Assembly: GCF_055900595.2 (NCBI RefSeq)
Contig: NZ_CM148325.1
Reading direction: 5' to 3' (one strand)
DNA length: 64,000 bases
Made by a program: the position numbers. The first letter of the stretch is position 1; each line of letters opens with the position of its first letter. Shown here in pieces: positions 29,401-32,400 of this stretch.

Positions 29401-32400
29401 GCATGAAATTGACGCTGAAAAACCTTAGCATGGCGATCATGATGAGTGGAATGATCATGGGAAGCAGTGCAATGGCGGCGGATAGCAACGAAAAAATAGT
29501 CATCGCCCATCGCGGTGCCAGTGGATATTTACCGGAGCATACGCTGCCAGCAAAAGCGATGGCTTATGCGCAGGGAGCGGATTATCTGGAACAGGATTTG
29601 GTGATGACGAAGGATGATCATCTGGTCGTTCTGCATGACCACTATCTTGACCGGGTAACCGATGTCGCCGATCGTTTCCCGGATCGGGCGCGTAAAGATG
29701 GCCGTTACTACGCGATAGATTTTACGCTGGATGAAATTAAGTCTTTGAAATTTACGGAAGGCTTCGATATTGAAAACGGTAAAAAAGTGCAGACTTTCCC
29801 CGGACGTTTCCCGATGGGTAAATCTGACTTCCGGGTGCACACCTTTGAAGAAGAGATTGAATTTGTTCAGGGGCTAAACCATTCGACCGGGAAAAATATT
29901 GGTATCTATCCAGAAATTAAAGCGCCGTGGTTCCACCATCAGGAAGGGAAGGATATTGCGGCAAAAACGCTGGAAGTGCTGAAGAAATATGGTTACCTCG
30001 GTAAGGACGACAAAGTTTATTTGCAATGTTTTGATGCTGATGAGCTGAAACGCATTAAAAATGAGCTGGAACCGAAAATGGGCATGGACCTCAATCTTGT
30101 ACAGCTGATTGCCTATACCGACTGGAACGAAACGCAGCAGAAACAGCCGGACGGAAGCTGGGTTAATTACAGCTATGACTGGATGTTCAAGCCGGGCGCC
30201 ATGAAACAGGTAGCGGAATATGCTGATGGCATTGGTCCGGATTACCATATGGTGATTGAGGAGACATCGCAGCCGGGTAATATCAAGCTTACCGGAATGG
30301 TAAAAGATGCACAGCAGAATAAGCTGGTGGTGCATCCTTATACCGTGCGGTCAGATAAGCTGCCTGAATACACTACTGATGTGAATCAGTTATATGATGC
30401 TCTGTATAACAAAGCGGGTGTAAATGGGCTGTTTACTGATTTCCCTGATAAGGCAGTAAAATTCCTTAATAAAGAGTAATGCTACTGCAGGATGGCGTTC
30501 ATGCGCCATCCTCTGCTAAAGCGAAATAATGCTACTACCGGTTATTCTTTTCATTAACGGGTGCATCCTGTAAAAAGATGCCAACATAATTTTCGTAAAA
30601 CTCATTCGTTAAAAAAGCTAACACTGGGCATTGTTATTCTTTAAACAGTATGAATAGGTCTCAATAATAAATTGTAATGCAGTTTATACTGTAAAGTATT
30701 ATTCGAATTTCGGAAAGGTAAAGAAAATATTAATGTATCTTATTAATTTATCATATTGTTCTTGGGTGAATGCTGTTTGCACACCTTCAGGGCAATATTT
30801 ACCAGTAATAACCAGTTGTCCATTGCTGTGTTGTACCATTAAACCTTCTTTTTCCTTTGGATCTACAAAATTAGAATTATCAAATGTGAAGATATTTTTT
30901 TCCTGTTTTGAGTAAGCAAAGAAATCTCGTGTATAGCTGAAACTATCATTTATTAATGGTGCTAACTTTTTGTCGGCGATATCGATAAGCTCACCACTTA
31001 ATTTATTGATGTATTTCATTTGCTTCAATTTTTTCTGCGCTTGCACAATTTGCTTGTAGGTATTTTCAATTTTTTTAGAAGAATTCTTAAATACATCATA
31101 GCGTTCCTCGGAGGATGTGTATTTGTACCATTCTGTATTTTTCTCAGAATGTTGTAGCAGGTCTGTATATTCTTTTTGCTTGCTGTAAAGTTGAGTTCTT
31201 ATATTTAACTCGTGGATAAATTTATAAATTTTGTCAGAGTTGGTTATTTTTGGTGTGTCTTTGTCTGTCAATGTTTGGATCTTGTTATTGATATTTTCTT
31301 TTGCAACATGCTCATTGATGATGTTAATTGCAGTTTCATATTCATTTAAATTTATTGTTCTTTGTGAAAGAAACCCTTCTTTGCTTTCGATACTCAAAAC
31401 ACCTTCGTTGTTTTCACCTCGGGTAAAGGTAAGGATATAGGGTTCATAATCTTCTGCAAATTCATTTTTATACGTTATGACATGCTCGAAAAAATGTCTT
31501 ATTGGTACGAAACCATAACTGTGAACGTCAATTTTTTTGGTCTTGACACTATCAATTTCATCTGAGGCTTTCGTGAAAAAAGCCAATAAATTAGCTATGT
31601 TGTCTGCTGAGGTTGATAACCCGAATCTACTTTGAGATATTTTTAGAAACTCATTGCAAAAAATCTCAAGTTTCGCGGTTTGTTGTGATTCTTTGTAAAT
31701 TTCTGCTGTTTGCAATTTATTATTTTGTAAAATATTACAGCGAGATAATTGAATAGATGTATTTGGCATAAATGATTCCTTGTATTGTGAGTTAACAAGA
31801 TACAATTTAATCTTTGCAGAATATATTCACTATCAAATTTAGCTCATTTTATTACGAAGACCTTTACGCATGTTAGAAAGTATCATTATTGTTAATAAAT
31901 ACGGTAATAAGTAACAAACAGATATTGATAACTTCCCTGACTAGTTATTAGGTATCCCACTTGAAGATTGAGAATGGCTCCAGAGTAAACTGTGTACTGT
32001 TCGCCGGAGTGTCATTACTCTCAACAATCGGTTTTGACAGTGAGTCGGGCGCTTCATACCGGTTTCTACCTGGAGTCATTGTCACTTCTCCCAACTGAAT
32101 AAATATATATCGCCAATTCACAAAGTGGGCCAAAATCAGGTGAAAACGAATTATTACGCCTGGTAAAGGCTATAGTACAACTAAGTGTGGCGAATCAGGC
32201 AGTCTTGCATTTGTCATCAATCTCATGTCTTACATCAAATTTTTCCACTCACCACGAGTTGTTCCGTACACGTTTGTAGTAAAAACAGTGGACTGCCTTC
32301 TACCGACTTTTCTTTAGCCAGCAACGAAATCTGTCGATAGAAGGTTGGTTCGAGAGGAACGGAACACAATTCACCTGCAATGGTTTTCAGCGTTAACTCT

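What the first reader, a model, noticed from the sequence alone, without database searches (positions are those of the whole stretch)
30477..30536. 10-bp direct repeat TAATGCTACT bracketing a hairpin at the glpQ-proximal edge of the island
TAATGCTACT occurs at 30477-30486 (includes the glpQ stop codon) and again at 30527-30536, with the GATGGCG/CGCCATC stem-loop between them. This could be a junction scar such as a short duplication, or a small repeat element marking where the low-GC DNA was inserted. It could equally be chance.
Basis: seen in the sequence. Interest (0 to 1): 0.3.

Follow-up and report, generated by a model that had tools for sequence, protein, structure and literature searches.

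The report
glpQ terminator hairpin beside old insertion
The hairpin is the ordinary stem-loop that ends the E. coli glpTQ messenger RNA. The second copy of the 10-base repeat belongs to a 1.7-kb block inserted once, long ago, right after that hairpin, and is most likely a worn-down leftover of another glpQ gene end, so the repeat is a harmless scar and not a mobile-element signature.

Summary
TAATGCTACT occurs only at 30477-30486 and 30527-30536, and the stem-loop GGATGGCG/CGCCATCC (30490-30511) lies between them.

Comparison with 5,426 E. coli genomes shows copy 1 and the hairpin are native. About 3,200 genomes without the low-GC gene carry them, many with identical sequence. In K-12 the dominant glpQ mRNA 3' end maps 3 nt after this stem (published Term-seq data).

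The low-GC block is a 1,714-bp insertion (30513-32226). It occurs in about 1,050 genomes, always single-copy, always with the same two junctions, starting directly after the hairpin. Copy 2 lies 14 nt inside it, so the repeat does not flank the insert and is not a target-site duplication. The block has no transposase, integrase or inverted ends.

The far end of the insert carries a clear relic of the last ~27 codons and stop of inaA (32084-32166). The block therefore came from a diverged version of the same glpQ-inaA locus. Copy 2, with its flanks (TAAAGCG-AAA-TAATGCTACT-ACCGG), is most likely the matching relic of that locus's glpQ stop region (restricted-space P about 0.002-0.005). Chance is not excluded.

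The two copies drift independently, so their identity is not maintained. This is ordinary and of low interest.

The parts
29403..30479 (+). glpQ (glycerophosphodiester phosphodiesterase), last gene of glpTQ; stop codon TAA at 30477-30479
   Evidence: Pfam GDPD, E = 7e-65; RefSeq annotation of the identical strain
30477..30486 (+). Copy 1 of TAATGCTACT: native sequence, the glpQ stop codon plus 7 nt
   Evidence: Present with identical sequence in many insert-free genomes (query positions 1-51 at 100% identity). Allelic variants are TAATGTTACT (K-12), TAATGCTATT and TAATGCTGCTACT
30487..30512 (+). Native stem-loop that defines the 3' end of the glpTQ mRNA (core GGATGGCG/CGCCATCC at 30490-30511). 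In empty-site alleles it is a 12-bp stem, GCAGGATGGCGT/GCGCCATCCTGT
   Evidence: Folding. Single copy per genome. 94.8% of cells paired, with two compensatory pairs. Term-seq primary glpQ 3' end 3 nt after the stem in MG1655 (Adams et al. 2021, PMC7815308, Supplementary file 1)
30513..32226 (.). 1,714-bp inserted block (boundaries ambiguous by one shared T); 1,713-1,715 bp in all alleles
   Evidence: Filled versus empty site alignment. Same two junctions in nine alleles. Present in 1,052 of 5,426 genomes, single copy
30517..30541 (+). Candidate relic of a second glpQ 3' end, TAAAGCG-AAA-TAATGCTACT-ACCGG, containing copy 2 (30527-30536). It breaks off where the 5' foot of the hairpin would begin
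   Evidence: Alignment to the glpQ ends of the K-12-type and MN06021-type alleles. Restricted-space P = 0.002 (exact 10-mer), 0.005 (gapped) and 0.011 (MN06021 allele). Not significant in a wide search space
30699..31769 (-). Low-GC (31.5%) orphan gene, 356 aa, found only in Escherichia, function unknown
   Evidence: No Pfam, NCBIfam, PADLOC or PHROGs family. Only Escherichia hits. ORF intact across alleles of 83-100% identity. Structure model unusable, pLDDT 41
32084..32166 (+). Relic of the 3' end of an inaA gene: last ~27 codons with the stop codon in register, about 72% nt identity to real inaA
   Evidence: blastn against five haplotypes, E down to ~1e-7. tblastn 14/25 residues, E = 3e-6. 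Local score 49-51 against shuffles of 16-17 +/- 2. Conserved in all insert alleles
32167..32226 (+). 60-nt tail of the insert; possibly a decayed inaA-yfaE spacer, REP element and yfaE end
   Evidence: Semi-global alignments give P = 0.003-0.9 depending on the allele pair: inconclusive
32227..32656 (.). Native DNA resumes: the 3' end of the convergent LysR-family gene (stop around 32230-32232, minus strand) fused to an MFS-gene fragment, the same 430-bp remnant as K-12 yfaH
   Evidence: RefSeq annotation; junction alignment
32657..33307 (+). Resident, intact inaA
   Evidence: Pfam Kdo, E = 6e-76; annotation

Best explanation
Copy 1 (the glpQ stop codon plus 7 nt) and the hairpin are native chromosome. 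The hairpin is the stem-loop at which the glpTQ mRNA ends, lying between the convergent glpQ and LysR-family genes.

Once, before E. coli diversified, a 1.7-kb fragment was joined in by illegitimate (non-homologous) recombination exactly at the 3' foot of that hairpin. No target sequence was lost or duplicated. The fragment came from a diverged version of the same glpQ-inaA interval, one in which low-GC foreign DNA carrying an orphan gene had replaced the hairpin and most of inaA. It therefore brought a few bases of 'its' glpQ end on the left (including a second TAATGCTACT) and the last ~83 bp of 'its' inaA on the right.

On this reading the 10-bp repeat is two copies of the glpQ stop-codon region, one live and one a relic. 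It does nothing, it is too short to recombine efficiently, and the two copies now drift independently.

Shown: hairpin and copy 1 are native; the position of the junctions; single origin; absence of mobile-element features; the inaA relic; the mRNA 3' end in K-12.

Inferred: that copy 2 is a homologous relic rather than a coincidence; the donor haplotype; the joining mechanism.
For: - Empty-site genomes (K-12, CRE389, E. whittamii, Escherichia sp. E1V33) have copy 1 and the hairpin running straight into the LysR stop codon. About 3,200 of 5,426 genomes are of this type, many identical through ...CCATCCT.
- The junctions are ...CGCCATCCT|CTGC... and ...AATCTCAT|GTCTTACATC. Insert length is 1,713-1,715 bp in nine alleles, including cryptic-clade strain TW10509.
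- The insert is single-copy, chromosomal and always at this site, in 1,052 genomes.
- Term-seq gives a primary glpQ 3' end at MG1655 2349897, 3 nt after the stem.
- The stem is maintained, with two compensatory changes in the MN06021-type allele.
- The inaA 3' relic is in the same orientation as the real gene and collinear with the locus.
- Copy 2 lies 14 nt from the left junction, in the same orientation. Its flanks match the last glpQ codons (TAAAG.G) and the ACTACCGG of the alternative natural glpQ flank. P is about 0.002-0.005 in the restricted search space. About 0.1% of unrelated 50-nt windows reach the same alignment score.
- Its divergence (about 20 of 29 positions plus one indel) is similar to that of the inaA relic (72%).
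- Touzain et al. 2010 (PMC2884548) describe polymorphic variable segments made by illegitimate recombination as a common class in E. coli.
Against: - The glpQ-end similarity is short (about 25 nt) and not significant when the whole 186-nt left arm is compared with 250 nt of glpQ (P = 0.17).
- An equally scoring AT-rich match lies 140 nt further into the insert (30665-30680), so chance can produce this.
- Short-range 10-mers are common in the window.
- No donor-type haplotype (glpQ running into copy 2 without the hairpin) was found: not among the best 15 of about 1,050 matches to a synthetic junction, not in nine sampled alleles, not in 80 outgroup loci.
- Similarity of the insert tail to the inaA-yfaE spacer is inconclusive.
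- The hairpin has no U-tract, so whether it terminates transcription or only protects a processed 3' end is unresolved.
Confidence: 0.62

Rival explanations
1. Coincidence. Hairpin and copy 1 are native and the insert is as described, but the second TAATGCTACT is an accidental match in AT-rich inserted DNA with no historical link to glpQ.
For: Nine 10-bp repeats with spacing of 60 bp or less occur in the window against 3.7 expected, and 99% of simulated windows have at least one. A second glpQ-end-like match with the same score lies inside the insert. The similarity is not significant in a wide search space. No donor haplotype was found.
Against: The match lies at the very end of the insert, in the orientation and order predicted from the independent inaA relic at the other end. 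Restricted-space P is 0.002-0.005. The two positions just past copy 2 where its flank differs from the flank of copy 1 both match the other natural glpQ flank, ACTACCGG.
Confidence: 0.28
2. Local re-copying. During the insertion event a stalled or broken end at the hairpin switched template and copied about 25 nt of the recipient's own glpQ end a second time before joining the foreign DNA. Copy 2 would then be a duplicate of copy 1 itself, not of a donor's glpQ end.
For: Copy 2 is identical to the commonest form of copy 1. The hairpin is a plausible stalling or breakage site. The sequence TCCT occurs both just before the glpQ end and at the junction.
Against: The flanks of copy 2 are much more diverged than the 10-mer itself. 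ACCGG matches a different natural allele, not the recipient's GCAGG. This model does not explain the inaA relic at the other end, which needs a donor locus anyway.
Confidence: 0.07
3. Mobile-element signature: the repeat is a target-site duplication, an att core, or the ends of a small hairpin-containing repeat element (REP/BIME or MITE-like) that targeted or delivered the island.
For: A direct repeat bracketing a palindrome at an island edge superficially resembles such elements.
Against: Both copies are on the same side of the insert and the right junction has none. There are no terminal inverted repeats, transposase or integrase. Hairpin and repeat are single-copy per genome. No Rfam family matches. 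The hairpin exists without copy 2 in about 3,200 genomes. The copies are not kept identical.
Confidence: 0.02

Closest known systems
3'-end stem-loops of bacterial operons (intrinsic terminators and exonuclease-blocking 3' hairpins)
   Same: A stable GC-rich stem-loop directly after the last gene, between convergent genes. The dominant mRNA 3' end maps 3 nt after the stem in K-12. In other Enterobacteriaceae a canonical stem plus T-run terminator occupies the same position.
   Different: There is no U-tract after the stem, so it is not a canonical intrinsic terminator. Whether termination happens here, or whether 3'-to-5' trimming stops here, has not been determined.
Polymorphic 'variable segments' of E. 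coli generated by illegitimate or homology-facilitated illegitimate recombination (Touzain et al. 2010, PMC2884548; Amarir-Bouhram et al. 2011, PMC3240628)
   Same: Several alternative contents at one intergenic site (at least five structural types). Clean junctions with 0-1 nt (possibly 4 nt) of microhomology. No mobile-element features. Orphan low-GC cargo.
   Different: Here the inserted segment carries relics of the flanking genes of the same locus (inaA certainly, glpQ probably). It is therefore an allelic cassette placed beside the resident one, not simply foreign DNA.
Target-site duplications of insertion sequences and transposons
   Same: A short direct repeat (10 bp) next to an insertion junction.
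   Different: A target-site duplication flanks the insert on both sides. Here both copies lie left of the cargo, separated by native DNA, and there is no transposase or inverted ends. For contrast, genuine IS1 insertions occur inside this insert in some strains.
REP/BIME palindromic units
   Same: A small intergenic palindrome downstream of a gene. A genuine REP-like element lies after the resident inaA.
   Different: The glpQ hairpin is single-copy in every genome examined and does not match a dispersed family.

Membership tests
Target-site duplication of a transposable element | The direct repeat flanks the inserted DNA, one copy at each end | tested here: not met
   Copy 1 is 26 nt upstream of the left junction and copy 2 is 14 nt inside the insert. 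The right junction (...AATCTCAT|GTCTTACATC) carries no copy
Target-site duplication of a transposable element | The element has terminal inverted repeats and/or a transposase, and occurs at several sites | tested here: not met
   No terminal inverted repeats. The only ORF has no known domain. One copy per genome, always at the same site
Site-specific integration (att sites) | An integrase gene next to the insert and an identical core sequence at both junctions | tested here: not met
   No integrase or tRNA-type target. The junction sequences differ
REP/BIME or other dispersed palindromic repeat | Many copies per genome sharing a consensus | tested here: not met
   One match in the window with up to 3 mismatches. 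Median of one place per genome in 4,254 genomes, always at the glpQ 3' end
Canonical intrinsic (Rho-independent) terminator | GC-rich stem-loop | tested here: met
   8-12 bp stem, -23 to -24 kcal/mol, z = -2.7 to -5.7
Canonical intrinsic (Rho-independent) terminator | A U-rich tract immediately 3' of the stem | tested here: not met
   No terminator-like site called in 30300-32700. The sequence after the stem is CTCATATC in K-12 and TCTGCTAAAG in the window
Canonical intrinsic (Rho-independent) terminator | An RNA 3' end at the structure in vivo | tested here: met
   Published Term-seq: primary glpQ 3' end at MG1655 2349897/2349896, 3 nt after the stem (PMC7815308, Supplementary file 1). This was measured in K-12, not in an insert-bearing strain
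Variable segment made by illegitimate recombination | Presence/absence polymorphism at one site, with a precise empty site and little or no junction homology | tested here: met
   The empty site ...CCATCCTGTCTCA is continuous in K-12, CRE389 and E. whittamii. The filled site has the insert between T and GTCT, with 1 nt of ambiguity
Captured allelic cassette (relics of both flanking genes) | A relic of the right-hand flanking gene (inaA) at the right end, in the same orientation | tested here: met
   Window 32084-32166, E about 1e-7, stop codon in register
Captured allelic cassette (relics of both flanking genes) | A relic of the left-hand flanking gene (glpQ) at the left end, in the same orientation | tested here: inconclusive
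   A 25-nt match that includes copy 2. P = 0.002-0.011 in the restricted search space, but P = 0.17 in a wide one, and an equal-scoring match lies elsewhere in the insert

The most novel reading that the evidence does not exclude
The foot of the glpTQ 3' hairpin may be a breakage-prone site at which E. coli captured a homeologous copy of its own glpQ-inaA cassette. This would be 'nested allele' capture at a terminator palindrome, for example after cleavage of the hairpin. If it is general, it would be a route by which orphan genes riding in allelic cassettes enter and persist at terminator hairpins between convergent genes, leaving short gene-end relics like this 10-mer as a diagnostic signature.
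Probability: 0.1. Interest if true: 0.45.

Novelty: new member of a known kind. Interest (0 to 1): 0.2.

Why it matters
It matters little in itself. The work shows that a repeat-hairpin-repeat at an island edge need not indicate a mobile element. Here the hairpin is the resident mRNA 3'-end structure and the repeat is a probable gene-end relic.

Three modest points of value:
- It fixes the exact boundaries and the single origin of a 1.7-kb orphan-gene insertion carried by about 19% of complete E. coli genomes, including O157:H7.
- It shows the insert came from a diverged version of the same locus (the inaA relic). That is a small but concrete example of how allelic cassettes can end up side by side.
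- It links a published Term-seq 3' end to a structure that is conserved, with compensatory changes, across Escherichia.

Tried and rejected
- Target-site duplication or terminal inverted repeats of the insert: none.
- Dispersed hairpin element: single-copy. Rfam: nothing but one chance-level hit.
- A canonical terminator call: none.
- A donor haplotype. A synthetic hairpin-less junction found only genomes that contain the extra 50 bp. Nine alleles of the orphan all sit in the same context. The 80 outgroup glpQ loci have neither the orphan nor a copy-2-like end.
- A longer glpQ coding relic in the left arm of the insert: none at DNA or protein level.
- Similarity of the insert tail to the inaA-yfaE spacer, REP element and yfaE end: inconsistent across alleles. 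My first tail test used a junction coordinate that was off by 5 nt; this was corrected.
- A weak match between the insert (32068-32083) and the inaA promoter region: dismissed because it overlaps the start of the relic.
- Function of the orphan: no family in Pfam, NCBIfam, PADLOC or PHROGs, and no relative with a solved structure. The exhaustive HMMER search found only Escherichia fragments. The AlphaFold model was too poor (pLDDT 41) to justify a fold search.
- An apparent distant homologue (P0037): it turned out to be a noisy ~69%-identity assembly of the same locus.
- The metagenome scan was not used. An exact-pattern search for a hypothetical, decayed donor sequence had little chance of success.
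Full report
**1. The observation**

TAATGCTACT occurs exactly twice in the window, at 30477-30486 and 30527-30536. The first copy begins with the glpQ stop codon. Between the copies lies GGATGGCG-TTCATG-CGCCATCC at 30490-30511. It folds stably: -23 kcal/mol in context, z = -2.7.

A 10-bp exact direct repeat within 60 bp is not unusual as a class. The window holds nine such pairs against 3.7 expected from block-wise Markov simulations, and 99% of simulated windows hold at least one. The repeat therefore deserves attention only because of where it lies.

**2. The locus**

The window is E. coli. The gene order is glpT, glpQ (+), a low-GC ORF (30699-31769, -), a LysR-gene remnant, an MFS-gene remnant, inaA (+), then yfaE, nrdB and nrdA (-).

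The glpQ-inaA interval is polymorphic among 5,426 complete E. coli genomes. Five structural types were fetched:

| Type | Example | Content between glpQ and inaA |
|---|---|---|
| 1 | window, Z0117EC0005 | low-GC ORF + LysR/MFS remnant |
| 2 | O157:H7 | low-GC ORF + intact LysR and MFS genes |
| 3 | K-12 | LysR/MFS remnant only (yfaH) |
| 4 | MN06021 | none; inaA follows a ~200-bp spacer |
| 5 | CRE389 | intact LysR and MFS genes, no low-GC ORF |

**3. What is native and what is inserted**

K-12 and CRE389 lack the low-GC ORF. Yet both have TAATG[T/C]TA[C/T]T followed by the same hairpin, running straight into the stop codon of the convergent LysR gene (...CGCCATCCTGTCTCA...).

Aligning filled and empty sites puts the left junction directly after ...CGCCATCCT and the right junction at ...AATCTCAT|GTCTTACATC. 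In the window the insert is 30513-32226 (1,714 bp), ambiguous by one shared T. No target sequence was lost or duplicated.

A 51-nt K-12 probe and a 99-nt window probe give consistent counts:
- About 3,200 genomes have the empty site, many of them 100% identical to the window through copy 1 and the hairpin.
- About 1,050 genomes match only as far as ...CCATCCT and then continue into the insert.

A further 1,058 genomes have the MN06021-type flank.

So copy 1 and the hairpin are native, and copy 2 lies 14 nt inside the inserted DNA.

**4. What this excludes**

The two copies do not flank the insert, and the right junction has no copy. There are no terminal inverted repeats. The only ORF has no transposase, integrase or other recognisable domain.

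The insert is single-copy, chromosomal and always at this site. That holds in 1,052 genomes and in every divergent allele examined, including cryptic-clade strain TW10509. The junctions are identical and the length is 1,713-1,715 bp in all of them. This was one ancient event.

The hairpin is also single-copy per genome and matches no Rfam family. That rules out a target-site duplication, att sites, and REP/BIME or MITE-like elements.

**5. What the hairpin is**

In most Enterobacteriaceae glpQ is followed by an ordinary GC-stem plus T-run terminator and then by convergent yfaE. In Escherichia lineages with the LysR neighbour (E. coli, E. whittamii, Escherichia sp. E1V33) the GGATGGCG hairpin occupies that place. 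The stem is the same and the loop differs.

In empty-site alleles the stem is 12 bp, at -23.7 kcal/mol and z = -5.7. The MN06021-type flank has a homologous hairpin, CGGATGGCAC/GTGCTATCCG. Two stem positions there changed on both sides (A-U to C-G, and G-C to A-U) and one changed to G-U. Overall 94.8% of cells pair, against 26-49% when the partners are slid. This covariation rests on a single divergent allele, so it is thin.

The Term-seq tables of Adams et al. 2021 (PMC7815308, Supplementary file 1) list a 'primary' glpQ 3' end at MG1655 2349897 in one condition (read count 395,838) and at 2349896 in another. The reported sequence is TAATAAAGAGTAATGTTACTGCAGGATGGCGTTCATGCGCCATCCTGTCTC|ATATCAAATT. 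The rows are 61 nt long, so I read the layout as 50 upstream + the end + 10 downstream. Other rows of the same table are consistent with this, although the caption says 40 upstream. On that reading the end lies 3 nt after the 12-bp stem.

There is no U-tract. The hairpin is therefore either a non-canonical terminator or the structure at which 3' trimming stops. These data do not decide between the two.

The insertion removed the outermost stem pair but left the core intact.

**6. Where the insert came from**

The orphan gene (356 aa, 31.5% GC) has no relative outside Escherichia. This holds for both the word-indexed search and the exhaustive HMMER search of 1.84 billion representatives. The one apparent distant hit is a noisy assembly of the same locus.

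The right part of the insert, unexpectedly, matches inaA. Window 32084-32166 aligns to the last ~83 bp of inaA from five haplotypes at about 70-72% identity, with the stop codon in register: FSQLNKYISPIHKVGQNQVKTNYYAW* against FRQLEKYLEPIPKADWEQVKAYYYAM*. The support is blastn E down to ~1e-7, tblastn E = 3e-6, and a local score of 49-51 against shuffles of 16-17 +/- 2. The relic is present in all insert alleles. It has the same orientation as the resident inaA, which lies 490 bp further on.

The insert is therefore not simply foreign DNA. It derives from a diverged version of this same locus, in which low-GC DNA had replaced everything from the hairpin to about codon 190 of inaA.

The 60 nt after the relic stop codon resemble the inaA-yfaE spacer and the yfaE end only weakly and inconsistently.

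**7. Copy 2 in that light**

A fragment cut from such a locus should carry a glpQ end on its left. The left end of the insert reads CTGC-TAAAGCG-AAA-TAATGCTACT-ACCGG|TTATTC. Compared with real glpQ ends:
- TAAAG.G matches the last glpQ codons (AAA GAG).
- TAATGCTACT matches the K-12-type flank.
- ACTACCGG matches the MN06021-type flank, where CCGG is the 5' foot of that allele's hairpin.

The statistics are moderate:
- Comparing only the first 50 nt of the insert with the last 50 nt of the glpQ region on the same strand, a 10-mer match has P = 0.002. The gapped alignment has P = 0.005, and P = 0.011 against the MN06021 allele.
- About 0.1% of unrelated 50-nt windows reach the same score.

Against this:
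- The similarity does not extend further into glpQ, and it is not significant in a wide search space (P = 0.17).
- An equally scoring AT-rich match lies at 30665-30680.
- No natural haplotype with glpQ running directly into copy 2 was found.

I judge the relic reading the most likely (about 0.6-0.65) and plain coincidence the main rival (about 0.3). Local re-copying of the recipient's own glpQ end at the hairpin is a minor rival. It fits the ACCGG flank and the inaA relic poorly.

**8. Does the repeat do anything?**

Among nine insert-bearing alleles, four have two identical 10-mers. The other five have a change in one copy: a GCT insertion or a C-to-T change in copy 1, or an A-to-T change in copy 2. 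Insert-free strains vary copy 1 in the same ways. Nothing maintains the identity of the two copies.

At 10 bp the repeat is far below the ~30-bp threshold for RecA-dependent recombination cited by Touzain et al.. It could still support a slippage deletion of the hairpin. Such a 50-bp deletion is not seen: 1,051 of 1,052 insert-bearing genomes cover at least 80% of the repeat-hairpin-repeat probe. That fits either a low deletion rate or selection to keep the hairpin.

**9. Mechanism and comparison**

The best-supported account is a single illegitimate insertion of a linear fragment at the boundary between two convergent transcription units. An insertion there harms neither gene, which would favour its survival. 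A palindrome is also a plausible break site, though that is inference.

This fits the class of polymorphic variable segments that Touzain et al. 2010 attribute to illegitimate or homology-facilitated illegitimate recombination. The particular feature here is that the captured segment is a homeologous copy of the same cassette.

**10. Verdict**

The feature is real but ordinary: a known kind of mRNA 3' hairpin, plus a probable gene-end relic at an old indel junction. Interest is low (0.2).

Noticed in passing
window 32084-32166: A relic of the last ~27 codons and stop codon of an inaA gene lies inside the low-GC 'island', 490 bp upstream of the intact resident inaA and in the same orientation. 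The island is therefore partly a diverged copy of this same locus.
   Followed up: yes
window 30699-31769 (-): An orphan gene of 356 aa and 31.5% GC, found only in Escherichia (about 19% of complete E. coli genomes, including O157:H7). The ORF is intact across alleles of 83-100% identity, with a hypervariable stretch at about residues 160-210. It has no family, no usable structure model and no distant homologue. RefSeq marks the identical copy in strain Z0117EC0005 as 'frameshifted', although the ORF is intact in the window.
   Followed up: partly
window 30513-32656; loci L002, L003, L005: All four combinations occur: insert present or absent, with the LysR/MFS genes intact or deleted (the same 430-bp remnant is in the window and in K-12). 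This implies recombination between two sites less than 1 kb apart, or recurrent events.
   Followed up: partly
window 30100-33000: The window's glpQ-inaA region is at least 99% identical to only 10 of 5,425 E. coli genomes and 90-95% identical to 3,727. That is an unusually divergent haplotype for core E. coli genes.
   Followed up: no
L004 881-983 (strain MN06021 type; 1,058 genomes): A third kind of glpQ 3' flank: a homologous but diverged hairpin (CGGATGGCAC/GTGCTATCCG), about 100 bp of unique spacer, then inaA directly, with no LysR or MFS genes. It is nearly invariant among its carriers (1,052 at 99% identity or more).
   Followed up: partly
hits H87-H94; L096 (strain GDSC2227PM): One group of genomes has IS1 inserted inside the 1.7-kb insert. 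In GDSC2227PM an IS1-associated deletion removed most of the orphan, the LysR gene and part of the MFS gene, leaving repeat-hairpin-repeat plus 200 nt of the ORF.
   Followed up: partly
window 30665-30680: TAATAAATTGTAATGC matches the glpQ end TAATAAAGAGTAATGC at 14 of 16 positions, 19 nt beyond the orphan's stop codon. It is probably an AT-rich coincidence, but it scores as well as the copy-2 region.
   Followed up: partly
L014 ('E. coli' SCPM-O-B-8794) and L015 (E. albertii): L014 has a GlpQ with a different C-terminus (...FLQQQK*), a different terminator hairpin, and inaA directly downstream. E. albertii has glpQ followed by REP-like elements and then yfaE, with no inaA at this site. The interval has been remodelled repeatedly within the genus.
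   Followed up: no
L092 (Logan SRR9924671) / P0037: A database 'protein' 38% identical to the orphan comes from a contig that is uniformly ~69% identical to this locus, across both native and inserted DNA. It is an error-laden assembly, not a diverged homologue.
   Followed up: yes
window 33308-33359: A REP-like palindromic element (GGCCAGATAAGACGCGTAAGCGTCGCATCTGGC) fills the spacer between the resident inaA and the convergent yfaE.
   Followed up: no
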